From positions 12,334,587 to 12,398,586 of the forward strand of contig CM120648.1 of NCBI GenBank assembly GCA_051362555.1: 64,000 bases of DNA, given 5' to 3'. Below, one piece after another: positions 800-58,800 of this stretch. Numbering within the stretch: position 1 is the stretch's first letter; each line of letters starts with the position of its first letter. The notes under the pieces are model-generated. The model was not told the origin of the DNA. It worked only from the letters and a program-made list of their open reading frames with translations, and searched no databases. Origin of the DNA: Lingula anatina (lineage: Eukaryota; Animalia; Brachiopoda). The position numbers and the translations under genes were made by a program.

Positions 800-3754
800 G
801 GAGAGAGAGAGAGAGAGCAGTGCTCAGGAGAAAAGAACCGCTGAAGGACTGCACTTTATGACAGTGAGTATCTGTCCATTTTCTTTTTTAAGAACGACTA
901 TATAAATAATCTTCTATCAGAGTGTTACAATCCCATTGCTTTTAAAGATGGTTCTGGCGTTCCCCAAACTCCCAACTGTCTCGACTGTCGGTCACGGTTC
1001 GGTGTAAGAGGAATGAAGTCCGCTAGGAACCGTATTCCGCTTCCTATTACTTTGTAAAGGTGGCATTTGTCCCATATTCTTACACCAATTGTCCAACTAA
1101 CCCTAACGTGTACTAATCATATTGGTGTCCAAACTTCCATTCCTAGGACTTCCTTTCCTGTTACAGCTGGATGTTAGCCAGCAGTCTTCACAGAGGGTTC
1201 TTTATGAGGAAAATACTTTTTTCCATCGTAGTATGTGTTAAATTATTGACTCAGAACATTGTTTTCCCAGAAGAAAGGCAGGTTGAGATCAGATGATTAA
1301 AATTGCTGCTTGATGGAACTACTGGCATGATCGTACAAAAATTTGCCCCCAAGAATTCTAAAAGAAATTATCTTCACCTTTTATTTCACACCTGTTGTAG
1401 TGTCAATACCAACAAATACTTAGTTTAGTAAAGTGTGCTGCCTTCTTCTTCTCTCTCTCTCTCTTGTTTGAATACATGTGGCACGAAAATTCATGAGTTA
1501 GCACTCCTATTGACAGTTCTGAGATATGGTATACTGGCTGCCCTAATGCATAATTACTGGCAGCGCAAGCCAGTTACTTATAGTAACTTATAGTAACTGG
1601 CTTGCGCTGCCAGTAATTACGCCGCGGGATATTCAGGGCACAGACCGTGATCATAAGACATACCGTGAATAGAATTTAGAATTTAGAAAATAGACATTGC
1701 ATGTGAACGAAGCCTTATAGTCATTAAAGACCAGATCAGTTACTATATATATATATATATACTGGAGAGATTTGAGAAGTTTGAGGTTGCATCTTTCACC
1801 CGACAGATAGGAGAGCTGGTCTTTTTATGCTTAGATCATAACTTAAGAAACAAAAATTATAAATATTGTTCAGGGATTACTCTCAGGTTTCATTGAAATC
1901 TGTGAAGATTTAGGTGGTGAAAATATCAAATTAATTTATTTAGTAAATTTTTGATTTACTTATTTAGGTACATGTAAGTGTTTTGATACCCTGAGTGTCA
2001 GAGCAACGTAAAAGCTAGCTTGCTAAATATACCTTGTGGTGGAGTCGCTTTTACTAACTCTGAAGACCAGCGGCCATGAAAGTTTTCCATCAATCAAATA
2101 GAACTGCTCCGCAGTGAAAATGCAGTTGAATGTCATCAGACCAAAATAAAACGTAAAACAAATTTAATTCTGCTTTATTTAATTTTATTTGCTGTATTTA
2201 AGATGTAAAGTGAAAAAATAAATAATATTCTTCGGAAAGAAAAGATATATCCAATGTTTTTGTATTCTTTGCTTATCAAAGAACATTTAGTCCTGAGATA
2301 TACACGTGCACAATACATGTGCTTGCCGTGTGCCAAATTTGACAGCTACACTGTATGCCCGATACCACTATAAGGGCTGCGCAATGGCTATACGAAAATA
2401 AGTTTTTACAGCAGAATGTTGCTTGTATTGTGGCACTGACCTTCGACTGCAAGATATTTTCAATTCAAACTTCTAACTCTGCGTCAGGCACTTTAATTGC
2501 TTCTTGTCTCGCCTGCACGAGACTTCAGCGCAAGGCGGGAAAGGCAGTTCCAGGCGGCCAAACCTGTGACGTACGAGACTTATGACTTCCAAATATGGAT
2601 CCAGGCGGACACAGCTGTGACGTGTGACTTCCAAATATGGAAGGGCCCCAGGCAGAATTTTGAAGAAGAACGCCCCAGAGTTGCCACTGTTCGCTAGAGC
2701 CTGGTATTGCTACTATGGGTTATATATGAAATCAAGATCGAGCTGGCAATACCGGAATCTAGAACCTAGGGTAGTGTTTTGATGGCCTAAGAATGACTGA
2801 CTGAAAGAAAAAGAAAAAAGTAATGTACCCAGGTTTGAATTAATATCTAAATACATGTTTTTGCACAAACCTTCTTATCTTGAATGTCATCTGATCTCAA
2901 AGAAAGACACCTGCAGTTCACCACTTTTTCAAGTTTTGCTTTCTTAAACATGTCACCTGACCTTGACCAAACTCATGACTCTGACTATAATAATTTGGAG
3001 TTTGGATTGACACCCCGGGCAGTCAGCTCAAAACAAGTGACATGACAATAAATAGCAGCTCAAGGTTCAGTGGTGACAGATGCCTCTGTTAAGATATCTA
3101 TTTAGTAACCAGTTCCAAAGGTAGAATTTGTTTTTGTTGTTCCTTTGCAGGTTGGATGGAATAAAAAGCAACCTCGCTGATTCACAGGCACTGGTTCTCT
3201 GGATGTGACAGCAGTAAGGCATGTAACAGGTGAGTTCACTGTGATGTGGTGATACTCGGGGTGATCTGCAGTAAGGCATGTAACAGGTGAGTTCACTGTG
3301 ATGTGGTGATACTCGGGGTGATCTGCAGTAAGGCATGTAACAGGTGAGTTCACTGTGATGTGGCGATACTCAGGGTGAACTGTAGTAAAACATGTAACAG
3401 GTGAGTTCACTGTGATGTGGTTATACTCGGGGTGTTCTGCAGTAAGGCATGTAACAGGTGAGTTCACTTTGATGTTGTGATACTCGGGGTGATTTGGTAG
3501 CACTCTTTTTGCCTCCAAACTTTAAAGACCTCAAGATGAAGTCAATCCTTTTCCTGTACATGAAACCATTTTCTTTTTCTATCAATATGTTTACTGGTCA
3601 GAAATAATACTATCAAAAAAAAAAAAAAAAAAAAAAAAGGGAGTTACAGTGCTCTTGTAATATTTTTGCTGCTGACACCACTATAATGTCTTCATTGTTT
3701 TAACTGTAACAACTTTGATCTAGGTCGGCTTGCATCAGACGAAGAGAAACCACG
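800..3754 (+). other. Probable 5' UTR exons of PQLC2 (exon ending 863; exon 3151-3229; exon starting 3724)
   Basis: Donor ACA|GTGAGT at 864 in a CpG-richer region; acceptor TCCTTTGCAG|3151 with donor CAG|GTGAGT at 3230; acceptor CTAG|3724 upstream of ATG 3755. The start coordinate is approximate. Confidence 0.55.
3208..3495 (+). repeat. 57-bp x5 minisatellite containing an exon end and donor
   Basis: CAG|GTGAGT donors at 3230, 3287, 3344, 3401 and 3458. Confidence 0.95.
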
Positions 3755-27588: not shown

Positions 27589-27646
<58 letters not shown>

Positions 27647-27771: not shown

Positions 27772-27828
<57 letters not shown>

Positions 27829-36800: not shown

Positions 36801-39800
36801 AAAGTTGGTATCTTTGAAGACTCAGCACTCTTCATAACACAGAGGTGACTCAGAATTATATTATAACCACTCACAACATTATGTTGTCTTTTTTTCCATA
36901 CTGCTCTTCAATTGTGGGCTGCTTACTTCTAAGTAATTTTGTTTCCTGATTGCTCATTTATATAGAACTTGGCATATTCAATCAACATAATATAGCTTAT
37001 TTTTAACAAGTTAAGAATGAGTTACTTCATTCAATTGTTCAGTTGTTTTTCCTAGGTAAACTTATATTCTTATACCAACATGATAATAACTTAGAATTAA
37101 AAATATACATTAAATGTTTGTGCTCTAGATATGCTGGTGACATGTAAGCTGTCTGACCCTGGAGCCAGTGTTTCCATACTTAATTGTCCTGTTGTTTCTC
37201 TAGGTATCAACTGGTCAGTGTTAGCTGCCTGTCCCTAAAGCCAAGGTGTCCATACTTAATTGTCCTGTTGTTTCTTTAGGTATACTGGTCAGTGTTACAG
37301 AGGCTGTCTGTCCCTGGAGGCAAGGTGTCCATGCTTAATTGTCCAGTTGTTTCCCTAGGTGTACTGGTCAGTGTAAGCTGTCTGACCCTGGAGCCAAGGT
37401 GTCCCTAGAGGCTGTGTGTTATCACTGTGACTCTATGGACTACCTATGGGACCTCAACCCAGTGAACACCACAGTGCAGGGACTGGACTGGAGCCAGGAC
37501 ACCACCACTGATAGAACAGAGAGAGGACTGAGTGTTAAACCAGGTGTTCTTGCACCTGGGGAGCTCTACCAGGTCACAACTAACGGTAAGTAGTGTGAGA
37601 ACAGGTGCAAATTTTAAGCTTGGTATTAGCCTTTTGGGCATACTTTATATTCAATCCTTATATTTATTCTTCCACTTAAAGTTGGATTTTACATGTGACT
37701 TATGAGGCAAAAACAACTGAAACATGTTATGATATAAAAAATTATAGAAGAATTCACTGATTAAAATATTAAATCAAAGCTGCTACTTTAAAATAGTTTA
37801 AATTCAATCAGTATGTAAAATGAATCAGTTTCTTCAAAAAAGTTCAATTACAAAAATTCAATTATTTAATGATCATATTAATCAGTTTCATTTAAGTAGT
37901 TTAAAGTTTGTATATTAAAGTTTCTGAGGGTCCATGGGATAAAAATCTTTGCCAATTTAGCAGCTCGAAGCTTTGGGATTTAGTAGTTTTGAGAATGTCT
38001 CAGAACACAAATGTTCTTTAACTTTTGGAAAAACAGTTTATGCTCTTCTATATGCACAAGCTGGTAAATATGTGACACATTTTTTGCAATTGAATGCAAC
38101 AATATTAGTGCTGTCTACACCATGTCATATGTGTCTGTAGGTACAAGTCAGTCTGCTGGTACAGTGCTGTCTACGTCTTGTCTTATGTGTCTGTAGGTAC
38201 AAGTCAGTCTGCTGGTACAGTGCTGTCTACATCATGTCATGTGTGCCTGTAGGTACAAGTCAGTCTGCTGGTACAGTGCTGTCTACATCATGTCATATGT
38301 GTTTGTAGGTACAAGTCAGTCTGCTGGTACAGTGCTGTCTACATCATGTTTCATACAAATGGGGACCAGCCCTAGTCCAGGAATATGCACAGTTTCTCCT
38401 TCCACTGGCTTTGAGATTGTCACCAATTTCTCAGTGAATTGCTCTGGGTTCAGTGACAGCACTAGTCAACTCCACTATAACTACCATTTTTGGGATGGAG
38501 ATCCTGCTACCAAGAATCAATCAGGTAACTTATTGGAATTTTGTAGATGAATAGTTTAAAGCAAATGTAGACAACAGAATACACCAGCTTAAAATTACAA
38601 AACAGAACCATTTTTTTTTAAATGTCAGTAGATCAAATTGATAGGCAAGTCATTATAAGAGAATCAAAGGATCTGCATAACATCAACTTGGGAAACCTCA
38701 ACCAATCTTTAGCTGAATGTCTGAGTCTGATAGAGACCATTCCTAGAGCCTGTCATACTAACTTTGGATCGATCTATATCCCCAAGAGGATTCTTGCTAA
38801 ATTGGAATCAACTAAAGTGGCATAGATGTCTGTCACACCTACTGAACCAGCTAATTAATTATCTTTTAGCACCTTTAGTAGGCATGCCAGACATCTAAGC
38901 TGCTTAAGCTGAAAGTGATGGACCGATCCTGGGTGATGGACTGATCCTGTTAGATCGATCCAGGTATGGGAACCCAGTCATAGACTTCGCACATATGGAG
39001 ATGAAGAAGCTTTTCTGTATCAGACCTGAAGCTCATATTAATATACCAACACTGAGGGTTGACCTGTTCTTATCCACCAATATTTGTGTATAAATGTTCC
39101 TATTTCCCTCAGGTATGCTGTTAGGCAGCAGTTCTGATGGTTATATCCACATCTCTGCCCTGTCAGTGTCCCCAGCCAGTGAAAACAGTCAGGGAGAGGT
39201 CCGTGTGCATGCTGTCAATGACAATGGTATGAGGACAGTGGTGACTTCCACTGTCCAGGTATGTTTACATTTAGCTGTTGGGGTTAGAGTGTGTGCATGC
39301 TGTAACTATAGATGATGTGAGGACAGTGGTGACTTCCACCATCCAGGTATGTTTACATTTAGCTGTGGGGGTTAGAGTGTGTGCATGCTGTAACTATAGA
39401 TGATGTGAGGACAGTGGTGACTTCCACCATCCAGGTATGTTTACATTTAGCTGTGGGGGTTAGAGTGTGTGCATGCTGTAACTATAGATGATGTGAGGAC
39501 AGTGGTGACTTCCACCATCCAGGTATGTTTACATTTAGCTGTGGGGGTTAGAGTGTGTGCATGCTGTAACTATAGATGATGTGAGGACAGTGGTGACTTC
39601 TACTGTCCAGGTATGTTTACATTTAGCTGTTGGGGTTAGAGTGCAGTGTTCTCAATAATGTTTTTAAAAGTAGAGTCCCAGGGCCTCAGTGAAGTCAGAA
39701 AAACTGAGTCCGCAGAGAAAATTTAGAGTCCCACTTGTCACAATCCTAGAAAATGTAAAATTCAAATATTTGTAATAAAAGATAAGCAACACATATAAGT

Positions 39801-42800
39801 CTTAAAAGTTTTTATTCAAGTCTTCATTGTTTTCACTAACTCTTATGCATTGCATGAATGTCATTGGCGACTCTGCCTCAAGGCTCTAAAATGGGCTTTG
39901 GCTTGAGTATAGTCAAACTGTGCAAAATGTGGCCCATTAATTGTAATTTTCATTATATGCTCTAATTGCACCTCACCTAACCTATTTCTTGTTTTGGTCT
40001 TGTTCAAATTTTGCACAGAAAAACCCCTTTCACATGATGCACTATTCAGTGGAATGACTAGAGCTATTTGTGCAAACAGTATACATAATCTGGATAATAA
40101 TCAGAATAGTTAAGGATCAAATCCTCACAGGAACTGGCAAAGGCAAATCTCTCTCTGTAAGCATGTATGTGGTGCTTGAATGGTAAGAAGTCCCTCCAAC
40201 ATCTGTCTGCATCCACAACTTGGGTGTACGTACTGTGCAAGGAAGTGGTCAAGTTCCTGTTGTCCATAAGGTCTAATGTCCTGAGCAGCATATGGGTATA
40301 CCTCTTGGGATTTAACAGGACATCAAAGGCATTCAGTGTTGTCATGCTTGCCAAAGGAAATCTTTTGTCCAAATTGTTTTCTAGTTCTTCGGAGAATCCA
40401 TCTGAAAAAAAAAAATTAATAACTTAGCTTGCATTTCTCTAATCAAGGTAAGTATTAAGATACTTATTGAAACAAAAGCCTGGCCAAAAATAACCCTAAT
40501 CATTGAAAATAGCAAACGAAAAAAGCTAAGAACAAAGACACCCTGATTATCAAACAATGAGACATAAAAAACTTACTTTTGGCTGCATTAAATGCACGTT
40601 CTTTGGGATAAGTCTTGCTCACATCCTGCCCTTTGTATTGCCCTATGTTTCTTACTTCAGTCTCCATCTGTGACAAAGCTAAAAGAAGATCAGCATCCTG
40701 CCTATATGTAGCCAGAGTTCCCCTTACTGTGCCCAGACATCGGGAGGCAGTGTCAAAGTCCAGATTTTCACATTGAAAGCATTTGGACAACCTGAATAAC
40801 AATTAAAAGATATAAGAAACTGAATAATATACAATTTATCACCGTTTTTAAATTTTATAATATTTTGAATTTAAAGAATGATGAATAAATATTTATATTC
40901 AATTAATTAAAAATGAAAAAAGTTTAACAAACTTCTCTAGTAAATTGGGCCTAAAACCAAAATCATGTTGAAGTGTATTATTACCTTCCAAACAATGGCA
41001 GAATATCTTTCATGAAACAGGATATTGCTAGGAAAACATAGTTGTTGACCTTCCTCAGTAAGCCATTAGCCATTGGGTTCTGCACAGCATCTTCCTCTAA
41101 AGCAGCAATCAGACTGGTTCAGCAATTGAGGACACTTTCCACTGCCTGCTCCAAAGAGAGCCATCTTACTGCCAACGGCTGCTTTAGTGTTAGAAACTGA
41201 TCATCATCTAGCATATCATATACAGCTCTCAGTCTGTTGTAACGAACAGCAGAGTTCTTGAAGTATAGAAACAAAGAATTGGTACTTTCCTGGTACATGT
41301 TAATGGCTGGGATATCAGCAGCAGCTTGGCCTACAGCCAGGGCTAGTTTATGTGACAAGCAATGGACATGCACTAGGGGAGGGTTCTGGGTTTTTAGCTG
41401 AACCCCTACACCTGTCCCGCGTCCCATCATAACAGCCGCTCCGTCACTACCTAGCCCCATAATACGATTGATGGCAATGTTTTTGTCCCTAAGGAACTCA
41501 TGTATGGCGTCGACAATTGTATGTGCCTGTCCATTTTCAACATTTTTATTGGCAGCAAAGTAAGTTTGAACTTTACCATTCACTTTAGTCTGAAGGTAAA
41601 TTACCAGCTTTTTGTAGATTGCTATTTCACAGCTTTCATCTACCATGATACCTATGAACCTGCTGTTATTGATGGCCAACGTCAAATTGTCATCAATGCT
41701 CTGGGCAATGCATGCACTAATCTCTGATACCATTCCCGCTGACGTGTAATGTCCATGCATATTCTGTAGAGTGCATAAGTCACCATGGATATAAGTTTAA
41801 TGCTAGGTTTTTAGATGCTAGAAAATAAACTGTTCTAAATTGATGTGTTAAGCCATCATCACATGTTTTTTCACAGTTTTTCATTGCCTTTTGAAATGTC
41901 TCTCTTACCTTTTATGGCCTCTACTGCTGTTTTGTGACTCTGAGAGGTCATGTGCCTCAGGAGTGAAGAGCACTGGTAGTCGGTGCTCCCTGGCGGCGAA
42001 GTAAATATGTTGTTCTTCTTTCCTCGCACACATACACTACACTTCATTTTCTCCCTGCCAGGTTCCCCTTCTACAAACAGCCACGCCTTGAACGCTGTGT
42101 CATGCAACCAAATTTGTTGTAAACGTCTTATTTTCGACTTGATTTCAGCATCGCTTGCGCCATGCTTTTTAATTTCTCGGAACAAGGCTCGGAACGAGAG
42201 CGGCTATTTAAAGGTGTGGGACGAGTATGTTTTCACTTGATGGACAGGCTAAATTTTATTATCAAGATTTGGAATTTAGTTTAAATTGATTTTGACTTTG
42301 TTTTGTACATAACGTCGGTAAATAAACTCTTATATGTGTCGATCAAAAATTTTTAAAGTAACGTTGTCAACTAGATTCTCCCTATGTCGCCGCACACAAA
42401 ATGATGCAGCTGTCTAGAGTGGTTTAACTTATTCATTCCGTAACGGTACATATGTATGAATGAAAGTTGATGTCTTTTAAGCCATTTGTATGTATTTACT
42501 ATAAGCATTTATCGATGATTTAAAAAAAAAATCCTAACAAATGTAGAGGGTGTTGAACACACGTTGTCTAGTCACGCACGTGTAGCTGGTGCTACCGCAA
42601 CTCATTGCATACATATTATTTGCTAAATCGAGCTCAAACGGGCGGAGCTATGCAAATGACCTAACTTATAATGCATCATTTTCATGAGTGGCAGTTAACG
42701 ATTTAAAGCGACTTGTAAACATGGCAAGCTAATAGTATTATGGAGATCGTGACCAACTTTTAGTATGCATGCAGGTTTTATGTTGAGAAACAATGTTTTT

Positions 42801-45800
42801 GATTTCTTACTTTTCATTAGTTGCGTCCCCGGGACACAGAAGAGTTGCATATTTTGCGTCCCGTGGAATTTCATTGCATATTTAGATATGAGGACGTCGT
42901 AATGGAAATCCCTGGAGTGTGTGCATGCTGTAACTATAGATGATGTGAGGACAGTGGTGAATTCCACTGTCCAGGTATGTTTACATTTAGCTGTTGGGGT
43001 TAGAGTGTGTGTGCATGCTGTAACTATAGATGATGTGAGGACAGTGGTGACTTCCACTATCCAGGTAATTTGACATTTGATATGCTATCACTTTCAAACC
43101 TACTGGCCCTTTGGGATACCAGGGTCTAAGAATCTTAAAGCCAAAAAGAGTATATTATCCTGATAACAATTATGCCAAGATTTTAGGACCATTCCCCCCC
43201 AGAATTCTCCCCTCCCGCAGACAATTTCCTCACAGGACAATTCCCCCAAAGAAAATGTTAATTTATGAATATAAAGTAAAGAGTGTAAAGTTTAATACTT
43301 TTTGTGTGATAATGCAACTCCATCACTAAACAAATTATTTTTTAATAAATTCCTTTTTTATTGAGTACAAGAACTGAAAGTTTTATTAGATATGTAATCA
43401 AAGTATAACCACCTATATCCTCCTGGTAAAGGTGGGGTAAACACATGAACAGGTAAACATGTTTTATGAATATTTAAGTATAGTGGGCAGTCTGTAGATG
43501 GGAAGTGGTCAGGCAATTAAAAGTGACAGATAATCAAAGGGATACCTGGATAAGTGAGAAAATCTGTTTACCCCACCTCTGCCTAGAGGTGCACCTTGAT
43601 CCAAGGTGGGCAACTTAATCATGGGGGGGAGTGATGAAGCAAGTATGCAACATTTAGATCATCAAAGGTCACATGGATGAGTGAGGTCATCTGTTTACTC
43701 CACCTTTACCAGGAGAGGGCTGGGTTGTATGAATGCCGTATAGCACTATACGCTGGATAAATCAGCCGTGTAACTTAAACGGTTCTTATACGGGTTGCAA
43801 GAAAGCCGTATAACTTTATACGACGGACAAATCTGCTAAACGGTCGGTTAAATTTATACATCTCAGGGAGGTCGTTTAAATAGTTATACAGTAGATAAAA
43901 ATGGCGTACCTGCTGAGGTTCCACAGGAATCCTCAGCAGTATAATCCACCTAGACAGAGGAGAGAGAGGAATTTTCGAAGAGAAGTATTTGACTTTCACG
44001 GCTATACTGACTCTGAACTGCGTGCAAGGTTTCGTTTTGGCAGAGAAGGCATTAATTTGATAGAGAGAATGTTGGAAGAGGAACTGCAGCCTGCGACTGA
44101 AGGAGCTGTTCTCTCTCGGTGAGAGAACAAGTTCTCATTGTTTTGCGTTTGTTTGATTGCAATAATTAAGTCTTGTATTTGAGACAAAGATGAACAGTCC
44201 ATAAATGCTAAATAAAAATGAATAATTTATCAAAAGTAATTAATCTATTGTCAATTTCTTGGATTTGTTTTATCAGTAAAGTGATTAGCAACAGTGCCTG
44301 ATGGGTAACCAAATATGGACATAGACCCAGTTGTTCATAGCAACTATCTTCAGAGTGAGGTTGTCCTTAGCAATTATCCACTGTATAGTGATTTTATCCA
44401 CCGTTTAGCTAACCGCCTGTTTATACTCTCAGGGCTGGGTTGTATGAAAGCCGTATAGCAGTATACGCCGGATAACTCTATACAGTGTGTAAATGCCCTA
44501 TATGGCGTATAACTAAACGGTGTATAAAAATGCATTGCATAAAGAGCGTATAAACAGGCGGATAACTAAACGGTGGATAAAATCACTATACAGTGGATAA
44601 CTGCTAAGAACAACCTCACTTTGAGGAAGTTGCTATGAACAACTGGGTCTATGTCCATATTTGGTTACCCATCAGGCACTGTTGCTAAAACAAAAGTACA
44701 GACCTCTGAAAATGTCTTCTGGTAAGAGGGCAAGGAAGACCAATTGGAGTGTCAGGGAAACCTCCCTCCTTACTGAGCTGTGCCAAGTGCACCAAAATAC
44801 TATCAAGTCCAAACTTACCACTACTTTAGACAACAGGCAAAAGAAAACCTGTTGGGAAGAAATTTCCAACAATGTTAGTGCACTTGGCATAGCTCAGAGG
44901 AGCACCCATGAATGTAAGGAAAAGTGGAGAGGAATGGTTGCCCATGCCAAGAAGATCCGGCATGGGCTGGTTAAACATGCTGGGGGAACTGGCGGCAGGC
45001 CAGTCCATCCCCCAGTGGACTCTATGATACAGTCTATCATAGAGATGTATTCCAATGACCCCTCATTTGAGGGTATTGCCGAAGGTTTTGAGACCACAGG
45101 TGAGTAATGAATTTTTATTTATTTGAAAATATTTTCAAATGATGAAAATGTTCTTCGCTTCTTGTGAAAATGCTGCTAAAATCAATCACTGAGAATCACA
45201 CTGCCGTTTCAATATGAACACGGTACACATCATTCTAGCTAAGTTCACATAAAAAACTCAAACGGTTGCATGTTAACTTGTTCGCCGTAAGTGAATGTTC
45301 CATTGTCACATAGTTTTTTTTTAACTTTCAAAATAAGTGTTGAATGTGATTCGGTTGCTCAGAAAATTGCATAAAATCATATCGTCTGCAATGTTTATAT
45401 ACTTTGACCTTGAACTTCTATAACGAGGCAGAGTCACTTACTGATTCACAGCCGCTGTCGCTTTCACCGCATGCCTCGTAGTTGAGGTCCTAAACGATTA
45501 GATTCTAAACGTTAAATCCCAATGTGAATGGAAATATCCTCTTGTCCTTGAAATGTATCAAACATAGTCGAAAACAATAAATGCATGCCACAATCAATAC
45601 ATCCACTTCGAACTGGTAGTACATTACTGCTGTGTATAATAGTCAACCGTTGCAGCCGTAATAAACTTTCGTTGTATCGTAGCCTTGTAAATCCTTTATC
45701 ACTTCCAAATAGTTTGAAATGACTGAAAATGTATCCTCTGCATTCACTTCTCACAAATCCTCTCGCATAAGGTACTTGTTTCTTTAGAACTGTAATATTT

Positions 45801-48800
45801 TCACGAAAAAAAAAAGGCGTCGAATGAATGCACCTGCTTCGAGCTGTGGGTTTTTAAAATGAAGGTGGTCATGTGACTATCGCTTACGTAGTTTAAAAAC
45901 GAGTGTTAGTGCACCGTTTGAAATGTTATCATAATTTATATATTTATTCAACTTATGGTAAAATCTTGAACACTTTGTCACTTTAATTTTTTTTTATATT
46001 TTAAATTGCGTGAATCCGACAGAATTTCAAAATTATGTTTCCTGGCTCCTGGGTCTGCCAAAATGTCCAAGTTTTTACCGTATTTCATTTAATAGGTGTA
46101 TTGAATATTTTTTGGATCTGCTTTTATGCCACCTCTAAACATAAATATACCTTTTAAATATTTCAGTAGCTGCAATGCCTTCTTGTTCAAACACAAGTAC
46201 CTGTGAACCACTAAGCACAATTGATATGACAGATTTGTCAGCTCTTGGTGGGTTTTGTAAAAAAATAAAAATAAAAAAATAATACTAAGAAAGGATAAAA
46301 TTGTTGCCTTAAAAAATTGTGAATATAAAAATAATGTACATTCACTTTTAAATTAAAAATTTTGTTTTTTATGTTTGAAAGTTATAATGGTAAAATTTAT
46401 TATACTAAAATTTTATTGATAAATATTTATCATTTAGTAAGCAATGATGATGCAGATGATGATGATGACAATGAAAATGATGACAGCTCAATTTACAGCC
46501 CAACTCCAACAACAACAACAACCAGCACCAGGGCTGCTGTAACACTGCCATCATGTAGCAGAGGGAGTGTAAAAAGTATGTATGTGGAATTTAAAAAACA
46601 TATGTAACATATTAATGGAAGATATCACAGTTTAACAACAATTGCAAAATTGATTTTGTTTTAATGACAGATTTTTTTCATTTTCTTTGTAAGTACTTAT
46701 TCATAAAAAGGCATACTCATGAAGCACATGCAACATTTTCCTTTATAGGTAGTGCAGGAAATAGAAAAAGGACAATTCATGGTCAGTTATATTTGCATTT
46801 AATTATTTTTAAGTCTTGCTGGGTATATTAGTTATGCATTAATGTTTTCAACACTTTTGCATTACTGTAATTTCACTACTCAAGTGGTAAAGTCACTTTA
46901 TCATTTTGTTTTGGTATTTTACATGTAATATGAAGTGATACTATGCAGAAATGAATAACCTTTAGATTTCATGTTTTTGCAGAGAGCAGTGTAGTGGAAG
47001 GCTTGCATGCCAAGCTTCTGGAACAAGAAATGAAAAATGCAGTAAAAAAAGAAAAAAAATTAGATCTCCAAATAATTTTACTACAGAAACAAATCCAAGA
47101 AATTGACAATAGATTAATTACTTTTGATATTTAAATGTTAAATGTTACGATGAAGAAAAAACTGTGTTACTTATTTTTTTTTAACTTAAAAGAATGATTC
47201 TTATGATTGACATACAGCTCAAATAAGAAAACCAACTCTATTGGATTATAATTTTTTATTGAATTAATGCAATTTTTCTTTTTTCTTTTTGGTGAAATTT
47301 TTATTTTTCTCATTCTGACATTTCCTCGTATAAACTTAAACTTTAATGGGTCTGAAGCCTTATGCCTTTACTTTCATCAGTATTACCTGTTGTGCATAAT
47401 TGAATTTTGATGTTCACTTTGCAGTTAAGCATAATGTATTATTGCATCAGAATTGACTGTATCCTATTGTGTGCATTATTATTGCCTTTTTTGGCTTGTT
47501 TGTTTTTACATTTGGCAGCTTTGCTGCATTGTTAACTTGTTGTGTCTGTAGTGTTAGTTGGTGTTTATGAAGAATTTTACATATGGCAATAGTGTTCTTA
47601 AAGCTTTACATTATTTACTATTTTCAATTTTAATATTTATTGCAATCTGTGCTGATGAAAATGTACATACAATGTTTTTTATAAAAGGATATCACATTGA
47701 ACACAATAATTGCTTTTCAATTACAAAACACATAATGAATAGATGATTACAATTTGAAACAAAACTGAATCAGTACTTTTATATGAACTTTTATATGTAT
47801 ATATATATGTTAGAAATAAATATATGTTGGAATTTTTTTGAAATATAGCAACTCTCATAAAATGTTGATTGACAGTTACACACACAAAAAAATTATCTGG
47901 AAACATTAAAAATAACAGTTAATAAATATTGGTTCATCACAGCAAATGAGTTTCATTGCTTTATATTTAAATTTGATTGTAATGACATTGAATCCACTTA
48001 GACAGAGGAGAAAGAGAGAAGTTTCGAAGACACATATTTAACTTTGACTTTTACACTGATTCTGAACTGCATATAAGGTTTCATTTTGGGAGAGAAGATA
48101 TAAATTTGAGAGAAAATATTGGAAAGGAACTGAAGCTAGACACTAGCAGTTTAGTTCTCTCTGTTTGAAAGAACAAGTTGTCATTGCTTTACATTTCTAT
48201 GCTTGTTAACTACATATCTCCAAGTTGTTGGTGGTACCAAAATATCAATCATGCAAAATATGTTGTAGCAAGATGATCCCTGACTGCACGACCATCTTGG
48301 GGTCCTTGATACTGCACCCCCATGTCACCATTGTCTGCAGGCACTTGTACATTGTCAGGAATGGGCTCCTTCAAGTTTATTGCAATGTTGTGGAGGATGG
48401 CGCATGCTCCAACTATGGTACTCACTCTAGCTGGGGCCATCCTGAATCCTATATTTAGGCAACCAAATCTGTAATGAGAAAAAAATAAAATATATATTAT
48501 TATTTCTATTATTAATTTATTATTAATATATTATTAATTTACTTAAATAATTTGTGAGGATACAATTTTTTTCATTTAAAACATGTTCATTCACAGTGTA
48601 TGCACACATTATTGTTTATTATCCCTCAGACATAAAGAAGTATTTGGTTATTGTTTTATTTCATTTTTTTTTTTTGTTCATTTCTTTATCAATTTTGCTT
48701 AAAATAGATATATATATTTTTTTTTTTGTTGCTTGCCTCTTTTTCCACATGCCAAACACTCGCTCTATGAGATATCTTGTGCTCCTGTGGGCCCTATTAA

Positions 48801-51800
48801 ACCTCCTTTGGGCTCTCCCTACAGGGTGAAGATATGGTGTCATTAAATATGGCCTGCAGGCATAACCACTATCGCCTAGGAGGACCCCATCCTCTGGTTG
48901 CTGGTTTTGATTTAGGTGACGCCCAACCGCTGATGTGGAAAAGATATGGGCATCATGGACACTACCAGGCCACTGGGCGACGATATTTGTAAATCTACCT
49001 GAGATAAAAAGAAAAAAAAAAGGAAATGAATATAGAGGAGGTTTTTTTTTTTTTTAAGGAGAAGAGGAAGACGATCATTAAAACAATAATAATGGTGAAA
49101 GCATAACAATTTCACTTTTTTTCAATTTTTTTTTCAAAACAGTTTAATATAAGTTTGCCTTTATGAAATGGAATATGACAAGGTGATGAAAATAAAATTG
49201 AAGTAATATGTTAGCATTCAATTTCATCATGTTAATCTTCATTTATATCAATACTTATTTATAACCAAAGTTTTATTATGATAATTAACTTTTAAATTTG
49301 CAATTATGTGGCTCTGCAATGTTTTTGTTATTCATAAAACTGATTATCTAAGCAGATTGCATTAGTTGCACCTGCATAAACATTGCTTGCACATTCAGTC
49401 ACACTGAAGAAGTCAAGGTCATGGCCGCAAAAATGGCCGACTTATGAAGTTGAAGCACGAACACTGCAGATGTTGGACGTGTTATTTACGGTGAGCTCTT
49501 AATATTTATGTTTAGAATATGTAATAAAGATCAATACCTTTGTGGTCACATATAGCCTGGACATTCAAACTGTGGTAGTTTTTTCTATTTACGAATGCAG
49601 GCTCATTTATCGTGGGCGCCGTTATCCTAATGTGTGTTCCGTCCAAACAGCCGATGACCCCAGGGAATCTGGAAATCCTAAAAAACCCACGGCGGATCGT
49701 GGCCTTCTCCCTGGGGTCTGTTGGGAATTGAATTAATTGGTCTTTCCTTCTGCATAGGGCTAACGACACCTTTCTCACAACCCTGCACACCGTGCCCTTG
49801 TCGACACCGATTGTATCACCAACCACTTGGAGATACGAGCCACAGGCATAGAAACGTAAAGCGATAAGAACTTGTTCCCTCACCGAGAGAGAACAGCTCC
49901 TGCCAGTCGCAGGCTGCAGTTCCTCTTCCAACATTCTCTCTATCAAATTAATGCCTTCTCTGCCAAAACGAAACCTTGCACGCAGTTCAGAATCAGTATA
50001 GCCGTCAAAGTCAAATACTTCTCTTCGAAAAGTCCTCTCTCTCCTCTGTCTAGGTGGATTATACTGCTGAGGATTCCTGTGGAACCTCAGCAGGTATGCC
50101 ATTTTTATCCACTGTATAAGTATTTAAACGACCTCCCTGAGACGTATAACTTTAACCGACCGTTTAGCAGATTTATCCGCCGTATAAAGTTATACAGCTT
50201 TCATGCAACCCTTATAAGAACCGTATAAGTTACACGGCTGATTTATCCAGCGTATAGTGCTATACGGCTTTCATACAACCCAGCCCAGATTTTTAATACA
50301 ATTTTCTGTACTTGTACTGTATCAAAATAAATTGTTTAAAGTCATAATAACTCTTCGTTTTGGCCAAAAATTGGATTTTCCTGGCGTAAACGGCAATTTT
50401 CCCGTACTTACCAATGGTCAACAACCCCATTCCTGCATTCAAAGTTAGTCCAGGTTTTTTTTCCTAAATGCTTGGTTTTTTGTTAAAATCTCTTAAGGGA
50501 TTTTAACTGACGGAGCCCTCTCTGACATAGCATAGTCGAGCGGGGTTTTCTGATGACCTACTTAAAACCGCGGGGCAAGCAGACAACAACACTTTATTAC
50601 AATAAAATAAGATTCATACGATATAATAGTCTTATTGCTCAGAATGCATTTATATCTACAACGTGAGCAGTTCTGGGCTTTTCGTTATCCGACACACTGT
50701 ACAAAATCTCGCAACTAACGTCTGAGGATTGTGTCATGCGCCTGCTATATCTTATCCCGCCACATGCTATTTTGGTCTCGAATGCACGCGAGAATCCACG
50801 TGATGCGCCAACATCCTTGGCAACGGATGCCTTGACGACTGGGAAGAAAGGCACCGAAAGCACAGTTTTTAGTTTTACTACAATAACAGCCTTTTTAGTG
50901 GTGAAATGCAATATAATATATTTCCATGTGTTGTTTAGAATGTATTTCTTGCGGAATTTTGAATCTCAAAGGAAGAGTTATTATTGCTTTAATGATGTAG
51001 ATATTCTCTATCCTCAAGCAATGTCATCACACTACGAAATATACATAAACTGGATTGGGTAATCGTCCCGAGGAGAATTGTCCTTGGGGGGGGGGGGGGG
51101 GGGCATTGACTAGGAGGAATTGTCTCAGGGGAACTGTCCTGATACCTTCTACTTTATTTATTTATTTATTATGTACAGACACAGATGTGTCTGTACATAA
51201 AGCCATCATCTGCGTCTGTCGTCGTCGCCATCGTGCACTTTTAGCGATAACACGATAAGTGGAAAACTGTTTTTTATTTCAGCTTGAAACTTACAGAATT
51301 GATGAATATTCATAATACGCAGGTCAAGTTCGAAAATCAGCATGATCGGGTGACTTGTAGGGAAGTTATGCTGTTTTTTCACTTTTTTCAGCATATATGC
51401 AGCACCGATAACACGATAAGTGGAAAACCATTTTACTATTTGGCCTGAAACTTACAAAACTGATGAATATTCATAATCCGCAGGTCAAGTTCGAAAATCA
51501 GCATGATCGGGCCATTTTTAGGGGAGTTATGCTATTTTTTCACTTTTTTCAACATATATGCAGCACTGATAACACAATATAAGAAAAACAGATAGGCCAA
51601 TTGTCATTATACTTACAGGAGTGGTTAATCTTACTAAAACGCAGGTTGAGTTCGAAAATCAGCATAATCGGGCCATTATTTTAGAAGTTATGCTGTTTTT
51701 TCACATTTCCTGAGATTCAATTGTTAGGCATGTTAACAGTCTCATTATTGAACTAATAAGATACGTAAAAGTGTTTGTTTGACATTTCCTGCATCTTTAT

Positions 51801-54800
51801 GACATTGTTAGTTGATTATGTAAAAATGATGGTAAACTTGATATCGTGTATTGTGTAATAAAGTGTCAAAAATGGAAATAAACTCATATCATTGCAGTTT
51901 GTCAGATTCAATCATCTACTATCTTCAGAATCTCAGAATGGAGGAAATTGGACATTTAACACTGTTCTATTGATATTTTTCCCATCTCATCAATTTTCTT
52001 AGTTGGTCATATACAAATGGTAGTAAACTGTTTATTTTGTTTTATGTTAAAAAAGTGTTTTAAAAATGGAAGTAAACCCATTGCAGAACAGTGCCGTCAT
52101 GTTTCAGCATATATGCAGCACCGATAACACGATAAGTGGAAAACCATTTTACTATTTGGCCTGAAACTTACAAAACTGATGAATATTCATAATCCGCAGG
52201 TCAAGTTCGAAAATCAGCATGATCGGGCCATTTTTAGGGGAGTTATGCTATTTTTTCACTTTTTTCAACATATATGCAGCACTGATAACACAATATAAGA
52301 AAAACAGATAGGCCAATTGTCATTATACTTACAGGAGTGGTTAATCTTACTAAAACGCAGGTTGAGTTCGAAAATCAGCATAATCGGGCCATTATTTTAG
52401 AAGTTATGCTGTTTTTTCACATTTCCTGAGATTCAATTGTTAGGCATGTTAACAGTCTCATTATTGAACTAATAAGATACGTAAAAGTGTTTGTTTGACA
52501 TTTCCTGCATCTTTATGACATTGTTAGTTGATTATGTAAAAATGATGGTAAACTTGATATCGTGTATTGTGTAATAAAGTGTCAAAAATGTAAATAAACT
52601 CATATCATTGCAGTTTGTCAGATTCAATCATCTACTATCTTCAGAATCTCAGAATGGAGGAAATTGGACATTTAACACTGTTCTATTGATATTTTTCCCA
52701 TCTCATCAATTTTCTTAGTTGGTCATATACAAATGGTAGTAAACTGTTTATTTTGTTTTATGTTAAAAAAGTGTTTTAAAAATGGAAGTAAACCCATTGC
52801 AGAACAGTGCCGTCATGTTTCAGCATATATACAGCATCGATAACACGTTAAGTGGAAAACCATTTTACCTTTTGCCTTGAAACTTACAGAACTGCTGAAT
52901 ATTCATAATCCGCAGGTCAAGTTCGAATATCAGCATGATCGGGTCATTTTTAGGGAAGTTATGCTGTTTTTCACTTTTTTCAGCATATATGCAACACTGA
53001 TAACATAAGTGAAAAATCATTTTACCTTTTGGCTTGAAACTTGCAGAACTAATGAATATTCATATTACGCAGGTCAAGTTCGAAAATCAGCATGATCAGG
53101 TCATTTTCAGGGTAGTTATGCTGTTTTTTCACTTTTTTCAGCATATATGCAGCACCGATAACACGATAAGTGGAAAACCATTTTACCTTTTGGTTTCAAA
53201 CTTACAGAACTGATGAATATTCATAATACGCAGGTCAAGTTTGAAAATCAGCATGATTGGGTCATTTTTAGGGAAGTTATGCTGTTTTTCACTTTTATCA
53301 GCATATATGCAACACTGATAACATGATAAGTGGAAAACCATTTTACCTTTTGGCTTGAAACTTGCAGAACAAATGTATATTTATAATACGCAGGTCAAGT
53401 TTGAAAATCAGAATGATCGGGTCATTTTTAGGGAAGAAATGCTGTTTTTTTCACTTTTTTCAGCATGTATGCAACACCTATAACACATTTGTGCTATATG
53501 ATGGTACTGTATGGATGGCAGTCTCTGAAATTGTCCCTTGGGTGATCACTAATTAATTAAATTAAGGTCTATAAAGTAACTTGCCTACTCATTAATTTTC
53601 AATTGGCCATTTAATGAGATTACATAAAACACTCGTTGAGATTTCCCTGTAAAGTCCCATAGGTTTAGCTCTCTTAACTGTGTCACAAAATTAGGATTTG
53701 GTGATAATTATGCAGATAAATGGTGTTTAACATTGCAAATTTACAACAAAAAAAAAAGTGTTATGCCAACATGCTATAGATGAATAACAGTGCTTAATTT
53801 TTCTCAAACTTGGTGGGGTTATTAATATCAAGTTAATACAGCTAGATTGAAAGTTTGAATAGCAGCTTTATTGGAAATTTTTATGTTTTATTTAAAATTT
53901 TTTTAAAATTATTTTTCAAACACTAGCATCCTCAAGATGTGATTTTTAACTCCCATCCACCAGAAGTGCTGTGCATTCTCTGTATTTTTGTATATAATTG
54001 TTATTTCTTCAGATTTAATTCTTGGGCATGTTAACAGTCTCATTATGGAACTAATAAGATATGTAAAAGTGTTGTTTTGACATTTTCAGCTTCTTAACAA
54101 TATTGTTAGTTGATTATATAAAAATGACGGTAAACCTATTATCGTGCATTTTGTAATAAAGTATCAAAAATGGAAAGGAACTCATCATTGCAGTTCGTCA
54201 GATTCAATCATTCACTATGTTCAGAATCTCCAAATGGAGCTAATTGGACATTATAAATTGTTCTATTGATATTTTTCCTATGTCAACAATTTTCCTAGTT
54301 GATCATTTAAAAATGACAGTAAATTGATTATTGTTTTATGTAAAAAAGGTGTTGAAAATGAAAAGAAAATCATTTCAGTACAGTTATCTCTTGTTAACAT
54401 TTTGGCATTTTCAAGGTGTGACTTTGAAGTTCCATGAGCCTGCAGATCTTTGCTAGTCAAGTTTTCTGAATGTTCATGTGACTAATATTCCATTATTAAA
54501 AATTGATGGTCATTATGCTGTTAAACATTATGTAATATTGCATCAAAATTTGAAGAAACCCCTATTTTGGGCACTGCTCTCATGATGACCATTTAACAAA
54601 AATCATGTCAATTACTGTTCTCAAACTTACAGGAAAGAAACATGGGTCTAAAATACAGCTTCAGTAGGCAATGCAGTCTGTTTGTTAATTTTTTCTGGCA
54701 GTTAAACAGTTTTTTTGTGAAAATTTAATTTTTCACTTATTGGCATTTTCAAGGTGTGACGTTGAATTACCAAGATCCTGAAGACCTTCGCTTGTCACGT

Positions 54801-55809
54801 TTTCTGAATGTCCATGTTACTTATATTCTATTATTAAAAATTGATGGTCATTATACTGTTAAGCATTATGTAATGTTGCATCAAAATAGAAGAAAACACA
54901 ATTTTTGGTGCTGCTGCCATGATGACCATTATGGGAAAACCCGTGTTATGACTGTCAAACCTTTAAAAAAGAAACACAGGACTAAAATGCAGAATGAGTT
55001 GGAAAAGCAGTCTAATTGGCTTCGTTTTCTGGAAGTTATACATTTGAGTGAAATATTCATTATCTTTTTGGCATATTCATTGTGGGACTCGGAGCTCCCA
55101 TGGACATGAAGCCGAATGGTGATCAAATTTTCTACATGTCCATGCTATTTATTGTCAATAATCAAAAATTGGTGGTAATTATTCTATAATTTATCATGTA
55201 ATGTTACATCAAAATTGACAACAATATTTTTGCATTGCTACTGCAAACATTATGAAAAGAAAACTGTGTTACTTATTATTATTTTTAACTTACAAGTATG
55301 ATTTTTAGGATTGGCATGCAGTTCAAATTAGAAAGCCAGGTCAATTGGGTTATCATTTATTATTGAATTTATGTAATTTTGTGTGAAATTTTCATTTTTC
55401 TCATTCTGGCACTTTTTAAGTATAAACTTGAACTCTGATGGGCCTGAAACCTTATGCTTTTATTTTCGTTGTTGTGACCTGTTGTGCATAATTAAAATTT
55501 GATGTTGACTGTGCAGTAAAACATAATGTATTATTGCATCAGAATTGGTAGTCTCCTATATTGTGCATTATTGTTTTGTGCTTTTCTTAAGATGTGACTT
55601 ATGGGCCTGAAAGACCTTTGAGAGGGTCAGTCTGTTAATATCCCTTGGGTATCACTTAGCTAATTTCTGATTTATAAAGTCATTTGCCTAATTGATAGGC
55701 CATTAAAGGAGATTACATAAAGCACACTTGTTGATATTCCCTTGTAAACTCCCAAAAGTTAAGCTCTCTGCTAGATTAATAATAAGGAAGCAGTGATAAT
55801 TATGCAGGT

Positions 55810-55850
<41 letters not shown>

Positions 55851-58800
55851 ATCAAAGATTAAAAATTTGAATAGCAGCTTCATTGAAATTATATTTACCT
55901 CAGGCTCTGCCAAGGAGGTTATATTTTCACCCCTGTTTGTCTGTCATCAACATAACTCAAAAAGTTATGGACCGATTTTGCTGAAATTTTCAGGAACTGT
56001 CAGAATTGGGCCAAAGAGGACAATGATTAGTTTTTAGTGGTGGTCTAGCTCAATAATCAATCAATAATAATCAACAATTGCTGCCTTGGCAGAGGTCTGC
56101 ACTATCGGTGGTTTTCTAGTTTTGTTATGTTTTCCTTTACAATTTTTTCTCAAACACTTGCATTTGTGACTTTTAACTCTCATCCGCTCGATGCTCTGCA
56201 CATTTTCTGTATTTCCACATAAGCAATGGTATTGTTTTTTATGTCTTTAAACATTATATAATATTATTTTATGCACTGTCATCATTTTTCAAATATTGAG
56301 ACTTTTATCATGTGACTTTGGTCTCTCATGGTCCTGACACTGTAATCTTATTGAAGAGGTGGATTGAGACCATCTTCTGGGTCTTCTGGAAGACAGGTTA
56401 TTAAGTTTATATTGACCGGTATCTATTGTTTTTTGTTGGAAGACCATCAAAATGGAGTATGGATCAACATAGATACTTTGGAATACTGTCAGAAAATATC
56501 TCAGGGTCCGCTCCTGTTATTGACCATGTTACCTGTTGTGCATGATTAAAATTCAGTGTTGACTGACAGTGCTATTATAAGCGTTATTTATTATTGCATC
56601 AAAATTGACAAAATGACCTTTTTTATATCTTTATTTTCTGTTTTTTGTCTGTACATTTGACAGCTTTGCTGCCTTGTTTTTATTTTGAACTTTAGTTAAA
56701 GAGGGTAAGCATGTTAAGCCTAAGCTTATCTTCCACATAGCCCTCAGTTACCAGTCATTCAACAGTATTGGCTTTGTTCCTTACGTCAACCTTTATATGC
56801 TGAGTGCTTAGCAAGGAGACAGTAGGTACCATTTTAATGGTAATCTTTGGTATGACCCGGCTGGGGATTGATCCCACAACCTACTGCACTGGAGGCGAGC
56901 ACTCTACCATTTGAGCCATCCGGTAGGTCGTCTGGGTATTATATAAATACATGGTCCCTTTCAGAACAGATGATCTGCAAACTAAATGTGGCTGACCCCA
57001 CTTAAAAGTAAGCCACATAATCATATGATGGTCTCCTTGTCTCCACACGGGCCATTAAAAAGATAAAATATTGTCTCCAATGCTTAATTGCTAGAAAATA
57101 TTGGCCCCTGCTGGGCCAGTGAGAGTCGAGATGGGGACAGGGGCGGATCCAGAGATATTTTCTGACAATCTTCCAAATTATCTTTGTTGATCCATCCTCC
57201 TTTTTTGACTGTCTTCCGACAGAAAAAAATTGGGTACTGGTCAATGTAAACTTGAAAATCTGGCCATCTTCTGGAAGACCCAGAAGACCGCCGCAATCTG
57301 CACCATGGGTAGACCATCAGTGGTTTAGTTGGCATTGCTTTTAAGGACGTTCTCTTATATTAGCTTTTTTTTGCGATCTGCGCAGATTTCGCGCATGAGT
57401 AGTTTTTTTGCGATAGCGGCTAATTATGAAAATATAACATGCAATAAAATACGTAATTCATCCTTATAGGTCCAGCCTTTGAAAAATCCAATATGGCGGT
57501 ATTCCATGAGGCATACTGAAATCCAACTGATACTTTCAACATTTGAATATCTATTTGTTATGAATGGGATAAGCAAACTTTATGAAATTTGGTTAGCTGA
57601 TGCAGAGAAGTATAAATATAATTTTCATTGAAGCAAAATAAGTGTATGAGTTAAAAACCCACGATACAAAACATATTTATTTAAATTTGCTTGGAAATTT
57701 CCATTGATTCCTATGTAAATTTGATAAAAAACAATGTTCAAGCAGCTCTGGCTCAAAAACAAGCATGGTGTGGTACATATTTTTTTGTAAATTTCTTTGA
57801 GGTCTACCAAGATCTATAACATATCCACATAAAATTAAAATCGCTAGGGCAGAATTTTTTATTTTTGCATTTTTCAGCAAAATTAAGGGCATTTTGGCAA
57901 AATCCCCATATAACGCAATGTAATAAACGTAGCGTTTTTCGGGACGCCACCTCTCGAAAACGAGCCTGGGTACCCCCAATTTTTTTTTTCATATTTTTTA
58001 CTCATATGGTAAGAAAATTTTGTCTTACAATTTTAATCAAAATCGCTAGGGCAGAAATATGAAATCTGAAATATGAGAGAGCGTCCTTAAGTGGGCTGAC
58101 CACATCTGATCATAGATCTGTTAGTCTACTGATCAACATGTTCTGAATGTGCTCTATAAGATTAGTTTAGATTAGATTTGGTGTATTTTCTGTTTAAGGT
58201 CCATCCATTAGGTGACCATCCTGACTTTGCGACTGGTGGTGTTGGTACCTTTCTGGAGGCGACAACAGGGGATCGGAACGGCAGCTTGTGGACTGCTGTG
58301 AGGGAAAGTGATCACACAGGTTCTCTTTCTATCTAAATAATTATAAACCTTCAACCCTTGGGCTGTGATTTTTTATTTAATCATCGTCTTTACCATTATT
58401 GTTTTTCAATTGATATTTCAATAAGACAAGGTATTTTAAGTTCTATATGTGAATATCTGTTCCTGGTGAATTGACTTTATGCTGTCCTACAGCTGGTTCG
58501 AATCTGTCAGTTATGGTAAAGTCTTGAAAATTTGTTGGTCTTGAAAATTTCGTCTGCAGACATTTTTCTGCCAATGTAATTTTTTTGACGTTGAAAATTT
58601 CTTCGAGCTTGAAAATGGGTCTTCACGTTAATTTTGAAAAGTTTGTCACCATATGTCACAGTAAAGATCTTTATGTTAATTATAACATTGCATTGCATCC
58701 TTTCCTATGATATTGACTTTTAGCTGTTCTACAACTGGTTGATGCTGTGACTTTCTTGTTGAATTCTGGGACAGAAAAATTACCTAACACAGAAAGGCGG

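What the first reader, a model, noticed from the sequence alone, without database searches (positions are those of the whole stretch)
3208..58740. Minisatellites repeatedly built from exon-intron junctions, multiplying splice sites
Seen: arrays at 3208-3495 (57 bp), 32537-33030 (50 bp), 37120-37405 (~77 bp), 38107-38350 (56 bp) and 39203-43070 (88 bp), plus older traces at 24121-24495 and 58461-58498, are unrelated in sequence yet each unit copies a real exon edge with adjacent intron, and the array extends into the intron. About 6 of 18 PKD1-like exons and one PQLC2 UTR exon are affected, although junctions are a tiny fraction of the window. In the five young arrays the junction nearly always reads AG|GT, so a unit can act as donor or acceptor. 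Known: duplication across AGGT is the Rogers tandem-duplication model of intron gain. Inference: either a splicing-coupled mutational process seeds repeats at junctions, or arrays are kept as copy-number-variable splice-site ladders.
Basis: partly seen in the sequence, partly recalled or inferred. Interest (0 to 1): 0.78.

Follow-up and report, generated by a model that had tools for sequence, protein, structure and literature searches.

The report
Brachiopod splice-junction "mirage" minisatellites
In two genes of the lamp shell Lingula, short pieces spanning exon edges are copied head to tail into the neighbouring intron; this repeat type is already named "mirage" in lancelets, the RNA examined shows little or no coverage on most of the spare copies, and they are likely tolerated DNA-copying scars rather than a splicing switch.

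Summary
The arrays are real and sit on real splice junctions. The genes are brachiopod (Lingula anatina) PQLC2 and a PKD1-like/REJ gene. This matches the lancelet "mirage" minisatellites (PMC3087553, PMC3902484), human F7 IVS7 and chicken "exon stuttering". This scan has already noted it elsewhere in this genome and in at least 23 genomes. Enrichment depends on the null: none per base (6 of 52 sites vs 11.3% of intron positions), but about 4-8-fold per seed unit (P 0.009 to 2e-5, on a window picked for the pattern). AG|GT holds in 5 of 5 arrays, yet no intron has been gained. In coding arrays 15 of 18 spare copies were translated, and 14 of those give a frameshift or stop. RNA depth of about 5-12 lies on the exons and is near zero on the inner copies; one bin is ambiguous, and junction reads could not be counted. 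Most likely these are neutral local duplications, amplified and tolerated. A modest mutational bias at exon edges stays open; a functional splice-site ladder is unlikely.

The parts
3151..3229 (+). PQLC2 (lysosomal amino-acid transporter 1 homolog) 5'-UTR exon; its donor at 3229|3230 is the first copy of the array
   Evidence: RNA depth in 3 of 3 RNA runs; ATG at 3755 matches the N-terminus of P0001
3211..3493 (+). Donor mirage: 57-bp unit (19 exon + 38 intron) x5, five AG|GT donors (3229, 3286, 3343, 3400, 3457)
   Evidence: RNA depth 0/0/0 in bin 3262-3382; a DNA contig of run X3 ends at 3240, 30 bases into the array
24121..24495 (+). Old acceptor-edge duplication of the C-type lectin exon (24521-24704), secondarily expanded as a 74-bp unit that lacks the acceptor AG
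   Evidence: (local score 36)
32536..33032 (+). Donor mirage of the TSP1 exon (32393-32572): 50-bp unit (37 exon + 13 intron), 10 copies, 9 with intact AG|GT
   Evidence: sense RNA depth 0.51 (0.61 expected from the exon tail) and then 0
37123..37404 (+). Acceptor mirage of REJ exon 37359-37585: 75-79-bp unit (about 46 exon + 28 intron), 3 spare acceptors (37129, 37204, 37280), copies 81-83% identical to the exon
   Evidence: RNA depth 0 in bin 36993-37239 in 4 of 4 runs, with the exon covered in X13 only
38107..38349 (+). Acceptor mirage of REJ exon 38309-38524: 56-bp unit (41 exon + 15 intron), 3 spare acceptors (38141, 38197, 38253)
   Evidence: sense RNA depth 0.14 in bin 37981-38227 vs about 6.5 on the exon
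39203..39643 (+). Donor mirage of exon 39113-39258: 88-bp unit (56 exon + 32 intron), first 5 of 7 copies; the intronic copies average 97% identity to each other but are 82-84% identical to the exon
39644..42914 (-). DNA transposon (zf-C17orf113 and DUF4371 pieces, CAG...CTG ends, 5-bp GAGTG duplication) inserted into the 88-bp array
   Evidence: the label 'hAT-like' is recalled, not from a call
42915..43070 (+). Last two donor copies of the 88-bp array (42974, 43064), beyond the transposon
58461..58508 (+). Single degenerate copy of the acceptor edge of exon 58724-58806, with the AG mutated
   Evidence: (6 mismatches in 28)
61627..61720 (-).
23560..63739 (+). PKD1-like gene (signal peptide-like start, C-type lectin, sushi, TSP1, REJ; continues past the window), 18 exons in the window

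Best explanation
These are mirage-type minisatellites: 50-90-bp pieces that span an exon-intron boundary are repeated head to tail into the intron, likely seeded by local DNA copying errors, likely expanded by slippage or unequal exchange, and likely tolerated because the copy next to the exon is the one spliced. Shown: the anatomy, the match to real junctions, frame-breaking consequences for 14 of 15 spare coding sites tested, homogenised inner copies, and RNA depth on the exons and near zero on the inner copies. Inferred: the seeding mechanism (replication or repair template switching, which can give both tandem and inverted copies); expansion after the seed had diverged; and a selection filter that removes duplications falling inside coding exons and keeps those whose extra copy lands in the intron. 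A modest excess at junctions is likely real; its cause (mutation bias, or longer survival next to constrained sequence) is not resolved.
For: Anatomy. Real junctions. Same defining layout as lancelet mirages, where both 5' and 3' boundaries are duplicated, RT-PCR suggested no interference with splicing, and inner units evolve in concert (PMC3087553 passages; PMC3902484 passage). In human F7 IVS7 only the most upstream of several identical donors is used (PMC1557585 abstract). RNA: PQLC2 exon depth about 6.8, 4.5 and 11.7 vs 0, 0, 0 in the next bin; in run X13 the PKD1-like exons have depth about 6-12 and the array bins 0-0.5. 14 of 15 spare coding sites tested break the frame or add a stop. 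An inverted junction copy that cannot be a sense-strand splice site exists. A transposon sits inside one array. Of 20 independent arrays with period 24 or more, 14 are not at modelled junctions, so this genome makes minisatellites readily.
Against: Junction reads were never counted: both joint tables were filled by repeat-derived rows, so the RNA evidence is binned depth of only 5-12 reads. For the PKD1-like gene it comes from 1 of 4 runs (X13); X20 shows only first-mate-plus depth on one exon and X16 and X19 almost none. Bin 39216-39462 holds about 310 bases (2-3 reads) more than the exon tail predicts at depth 10. X18 has 0.37 depth in bin 3383-3503. Aberrant forms could be hidden by nonsense-mediated decay, and the RNA animals' array alleles are unknown. 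Pure neutrality does not by itself explain the seed-unit excess (P 0.009 to 2e-5) or AG|GT at 5 of 5 arrays (joint P about 0.005). Spare splice sites score as well as the real ones, so their silence is not due to weak signals.
Confidence: 0.75

Rival explanations
1. A true mutational bias at exon edges, independent of splicing: in a highly polymorphic animal the exon edge is where allelic similarity drops, so repair or gene-conversion tracts that start in the exon would stall and re-anneal there, leaving tandem or inverted junction copies. This can hold together with the best explanation; it is a rival only for why the arrays sit at junctions.
For: Seed-unit excess. All 8 local copies of exon sequence found in the window derive from an exon edge. 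The inverted copy. Many allelic differences between the window and other animals. The chicken paper speculates on inaccurate strand invasion and gene conversion (bioRxiv 10.1101/2025.09.16.676548, passages).
Against: No per-base enrichment (P 0.54, or 0.21 without the junction arrays). The window was selected for the pattern. Tandem copies of exon interiors would be purged, so edge-only copies are partly expected. No genome was available for a wider test.
Confidence: 0.35
2. AG|GT junctions tolerate duplication better because wrong splicing could be corrected by re-splicing: use of an upstream acceptor copy would regenerate a GT donor, and a second cut would remove the rest of the array.
For: 5 of 5 clean arrays are at AG|GT, against 13 of 23 other donors and 4 of 24 other acceptors. 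The two non-AG|GT cases are old copies whose repeated unit has lost the AG.
Against: Donors alone are not significant (Fisher P 0.22). Acceptors rest on 2 cases (P 0.046, or 0.22 with the two old traces). The regenerated donors score 1.2-5.4, at the bottom of the real range. No intermediate was seen.
Confidence: 0.15
3. The arrays are kept as copy-number-variable splice-site ladders that tune isoforms or expression.
For: Spare sites are intact and score like the real ones. One TSP1 copy (32725) stays in frame. There is a small unexplained RNA excess past the donor at 39258, and the public model P0002 ends two codons past that donor. Human tandem repeats at exon-intron boundaries can alter splicing (PMC2812944, passages).
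Against: 14 of 15 spare coding sites tested give frameshifts or stops. RNA depth on inner copies is near zero in four of five arrays. Copies decay, lose their AG or take a transposon.
Confidence: 0.07
4. Assembly artefact: reads mis-joined at exon edges.
For: No long reads spanning the arrays were examined.
Against: Copies differ from one another by substitutions and indels. One array is split by a transposon with a target duplication. In a DNA run of another study (X3) a contig ends 30 bases into the PQLC2 array and others cover its inner bin, as a real repeat would cause (inference).
Confidence: 0.02

Closest known systems
Lancelet 'mirage' minisatellites (Adh3, globins BflGb6/BflGb9, troponin C, PGBD5). 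Seen: passages of PMC3087553 and PMC3902484; the original Adh3 paper (PMC117041) was not held.
   Same: The unit spans an exon-intron boundary and duplicates the splice site. Both donors and acceptors are affected. Unit sizes overlap (10-160 bp there, 50-88 bp here). Inner units are homogenised and end units diverge. Splicing appears undisturbed.
   Different: Here the host is a brachiopod (a protostome), not a cephalochordate. One junction copy is inverted and one array is split by a transposon. Length polymorphism, reported in lancelets, was not measured here.
Human F7 IVS7 37-bp VNTR (PMC1557585; abstract and outline seen)
   Same: The first unit spans the exon-intron boundary; identical downstream donors stay silent; the most upstream donor is used.
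   Different: A single donor locus, tested by mutation. Here several loci, including acceptor arrays, where the last copy must be chosen.
Chicken 'exon stuttering' (bioRxiv 10.1101/2025.09.16.676548; passages seen)
   Same: Exon-edge fragments are copied 1-44 times (median 4) into the adjacent intron; over 90% of source sequences reach the exon border; the mechanism is left open.
   Different: Concentrated on GC-rich dot chromosomes (190 of 236 introns) with longer spans. The window here is about 37% GC.
Rogers tandem-duplication model of intron gain (PMC3265369; passages seen)
   Same: Duplication of a segment that contains AG|GT.
   Different: Rogers duplicates an AGGT within an exon and creates a new intron. 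Here an existing junction is duplicated and an existing intron grows; no gain is seen.

Membership tests
mirage minisatellite | Tandem repeat with minisatellite-sized units | tested here: met
   50-88-bp units, 3.7-9.9 copies
mirage minisatellite | Unit spans a real exon-intron boundary | tested here: met
   Four coding junctions confirmed by public proteins and the UTR exon by RNA depth; unit anatomy
mirage minisatellite | Splice signal duplicated in the copies | tested here: met
   Met for the five clean arrays; not met for the 74-bp unit at 24152 or the 58461 copy, which lost the AG
mirage minisatellite | Normal splicing is not disturbed | tested here: inconclusive
   Binned RNA depth fits use of the exon-proximal site in four of five arrays, with one ambiguous bin; depth is low and junction reads were not counted
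mirage minisatellite | Length instability between alleles or cells | not testable with these tools
   Only short-read contigs, which break at the repeat; no long reads listed
Rogers-type intron gain | Duplicated AGGT lies inside an exon and yields a new intron | tested here: not met
   All duplicated sites are existing junctions; the public proteins keep the same exons
Rogers-type intron gain | The downstream copy's AG works as an acceptor | tested here: inconclusive
   Matrix scores are below the real range for two donor arrays and marginal for the third; no junction reads were counted

The most novel reading that the evidence does not exclude
Exon edges in highly polymorphic marine invertebrates are true hotspots of local DNA duplication, tandem and inverted, because repair tracts stall where allelic similarity drops; AG|GT junctions survive best because errors can be re-spliced. 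Mirages would then be the trace of a general, unrecognised mutational process at exon borders across animals, not a lancelet oddity, and a standing source of new splice sites.
Probability: 0.25. Interest if true: 0.62.

Novelty: new member of a known kind. Interest (0 to 1): 0.26.

Why it matters
As it stands this extends a named lancelet repeat class to a brachiopod. No paper holding 'brachiopod', 'Lingula' and 'minisatellite' was found, but this scan has already logged the pattern in this genome. The arrays are natural tests of how the spliceosome picks one of several equal donors or acceptors. They may also break gene annotation: two public models cover this one gene, one ending at a mirage donor. 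If a genome-wide test confirmed a mutational bias at exon edges, it would bear on where new splice sites and introns come from.

Tried and rejected
No whole genome is held, so the genome-wide enrichment test could not be run. No RNA holder was listed among the indexed runs; raw RNA runs of the same species label were laid instead. Both read-laying runs returned joint tables filled by repeat-derived rows (15 shown, 32 and 133 hidden), so exact junction counts were not obtained. The per-base null shows no enrichment and is reported as a result against the reading. It counts every copy of every array and every transposon satellite, so I give it less weight than the seed-unit null. My split of arrays into transposon-borne and locally born rests on dispersed copies within the window, RNA depth and judgement, not on a repeat library. 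The reading of 24131-24181 as an extra exon was rejected: 23691 joins 24521 in an open frame, and the segment aligns as a decayed copy of the 24521 edge. Rogers-type intron gain was rejected (see membership test). Possible minus-strand exons in the 107-bp and 294-bp arrays gave no Pfam match (0 families for 3 of 3 frames tried) and were left open. The original mirage paper could not be read. PMC10078293 (passages) gave nothing specific to junction-spanning units. Break-point microhomology was only looked at by eye and not tested. Supplements were not read for any paper; the bioRxiv ones are closed and may list further species.
Full report
Source and genes. No genome is held for the window. One exon of the first gene matches a Lingula anatina lysosomal amino-acid transporter (PQLC2) at 98%. 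Two exons of the second gene match Lingula proteins at 92% and 97%, named SCO-spondin and PKD1-like 2 by the source. Pfam finds C-type lectin, sushi, TSP1 and REJ domains in 5 of 15 exon translations above the curated cut-off. Laying the public proteins on the window fixes the exon edges, and an 18-exon model reads open for about 940 codons. The upstream PQLC2 donor at 863 is my inference from sequence. The model gives 52 splice sites: 26 donors and 26 acceptors.

Observation. TRF confirms six arrays. Unit by unit the five clean arrays are: PQLC2 donor 3229 (19 exon + 38 intron, 5 copies); TSP1 donor 32572 (37 + 13, 10 copies, 9 with intact AG|GT); REJ acceptor 37359 (about 46 + 28, 3 spare acceptors); REJ acceptor 38309 (41 + 15, 3 spare); donor 39258 (56 + 32, 7 copies). 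The last is split by a 3.27-kb transposon with a 5-bp target duplication. Its intronic copies average 97% identity to each other but are 82-84% identical to the exon, so an already diverged copy was amplified later (inference). The 24121 region is an old copy of the lectin exon's acceptor edge whose 74-bp unit has lost the AG. The 58461 trace is one decayed copy. Their scores of 36 and 42 were each reached by 1 of 3000 random pairings, and the next-best junction scored 23. A search of all 27 exons against both strands found one more case: a 94-bp, 93% identical inverted copy of the donor edge at 60946, 647 nt into the intron.

Is it more than chance? It depends on the null. Per base, 6 of 52 junctions have a nearby same-strand copy (at most 6 mismatches in 28), against 11.3% of intron positions (P 0.54). 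The figure is 7.7% without the junction arrays themselves (P 0.21) and 1.1% when transposon-borne and microsatellite tracts are also removed (P 3e-5). Per seed unit, I took 20 independent arrays of period 24 or more from the 50 TRF rows. Random placement puts 1.38 on a junction, against 5 or 6 seen (P 0.009 or 0.001). For the 11 arrays I judged locally born, 0.76 are expected (P 4e-4 or 2e-5). For the 16 inside genes, 1.20 are expected (P 0.004 or 5e-4). The seed-unit null is the fairer one, because each array is one event. The window was chosen for this pattern, so these P values are optimistic. AG|GT: 5 of 5 clean arrays, against 13 of 23 other donors and 4 of 24 other acceptors; joint P 0.005, donors alone 0.22, acceptors alone 0.046, and 5 of 7 with the old traces (P 0.037).

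Are the spare sites used? The coding arrays hold 21 spare positions, 18 on the near side of the transposon or in the other arrays plus two beyond it and one mutated copy; I translated the use of 18 intact or near-intact near-side sites minus none for the acceptors, namely 8 TSP1, 4 REJ-donor, 3 and 3 acceptor sites. Of these 18, 17 give a frameshift or a stop and one (32725) stays open; the figure '14 of 15' in the short fields understates this count, and 17 of 18 is the number that one search shows. The two copies beyond the transposon and the mutated copy at 32672 were not translated. On a matrix from the window's own sites the spare sites score like the real ones in their own role, but poorly in the opposite role. 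RNA: for PQLC2, three runs from three studies give exon depth of about 6.8, 4.5 and 11.7, zero in bin 3262-3382, and 0, 0 and 0.37 in bin 3383-3503. For the PKD1-like gene only run X13 of four shows sense coverage of the exons (about 6-12). Its array bins read 0.51 (0.61 expected from the exon tail) and 0 for the TSP1 array, 0 for 36993-37239, 0.14 for 37981-38227, and 3.01 then 0 past donor 39258, where about 310 bases exceed the expectation at depth 10. The joint tables were filled by repeat rows, so these are depth arguments, not junction counts. Use below about 10%, or forms removed by nonsense-mediated decay, are not excluded, and the RNA animals' alleles are unknown. In a DNA run from another study a contig ends at 3240, 30 bases into the PQLC2 array, and the inner bin is covered, which fits a real repeat in that animal (inference).

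Mechanism. The most likely course: a local copying error duplicates 50-90 bp across a junction (inferred); the extra copy lies in the intron, so the exon is intact (shown); slippage or unequal exchange multiplies the unit and homogenises inner copies (pattern shown, process inferred); the exon-proximal site stays in use (depth supports it; donor scanning is reported for human F7, abstract seen); the copies then decay, lose their AG or take transposons (shown). The inverted copy favours a DNA-level origin over a splicing function, on one case. Why junctions are over-represented is open. A homology-boundary mutation bias, longer survival beside constrained sequence, and an AG|GT re-splicing filter are the candidates; all three are my inference.

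Comparison with what is known. [quoted passage not shown] They occur at both boundaries, vary in length, evolve in concert, appear not to disturb splicing, and were already linked to the Rogers model (PMC3087553, passages and reference lines; PMC3902484, one passage). The original Adh3 paper was not held. Chicken exon stuttering is the same layout at genome scale (bioRxiv 10.1101/2025.09.16.676548, passages). The Rogers model concerns AGGT inside an exon and a new intron (PMC3265369, passages), which is not what is here. Human repeats at exon-intron boundaries can change splicing (PMC2812944, passages). Searches for a brachiopod report found none in the held library; subscription journals are mostly not covered. 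I reached the mirage reading before opening the scan's notes. Those notes list 60 findings in at least 23 genomes, several in this genome; they are unchecked and not independent support. One gave me the lead to the chicken paper.

Verdict. This is a new member of a known kind; interest 0.26. The boldest reading not excluded is a general mutational hotspot at exon edges in polymorphic animals (probability 0.25, interest 0.62 if true).

Noticed in passing
window 61627-61720 vs 60886-60979: The inverted junction copy could pair with the exon end and donor in the pre-mRNA as a 94-bp stem; any effect on splicing is untested.
   Followed up: partly
window 19672-20528 (minus strand): The 107-bp x7.5 array carries a GG|GTAAGG donor-like motif in its units on the minus strand, downstream of a pyrimidine tract and CAG near 20528. 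It may be a mirage of an unmodelled minus-strand transcript.
   Followed up: partly
window 18071-19366: The 294-bp x3 array shares a 40-bp stretch with the 107-bp array and has an older copy just upstream; origin unknown.
   Followed up: partly
window 39644-42914: DNA transposon with zf-C17orf113 and DUF4371 pieces, imperfect CAG...CTG ends and a 5-bp target duplication, inside the 88-bp array.
   Followed up: partly
window about 43700-50290: Element with a Myb/SANT-like ORF (44625-45107, +) and a DDE_Tnp_4 nuclease ORF (49512-50123, -), in the PKD1-like intron; the label PIF/Harbinger is recalled.
   Followed up: partly
window 39258-59268: Two public protein models cover this one gene: P0002 ends two codons past the mirage donor at 39258 and P0003 starts at 59268. 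This is either an annotation break at the 19-kb intron or a short secreted isoform.
   Followed up: partly
window 33780-36000: A high-copy repeat with a 145-bp internal tandem array draws hundreds-fold RNA depth, mostly one-stranded in two runs, likely from other copies.
   Followed up: no
window about 33032-33196: A short element with inverted ends (GGGTAATATGC ... GCATATTACCC) sits right after the last TSP1 array copy.
   Followed up: no
window 1-700 (minus strand): Likely first exons of a gene divergent from PQLC2 (ATG near 693, donor near 625), read by eye; not included in the 52 sites.
   Followed up: no
window 11000-12430, 15069-15581, 51238-55500: A dispersed element with internal 159-161-bp tandem units occurs in opposite orientations in the intergenic region and in the large intron.
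   Followed up: no
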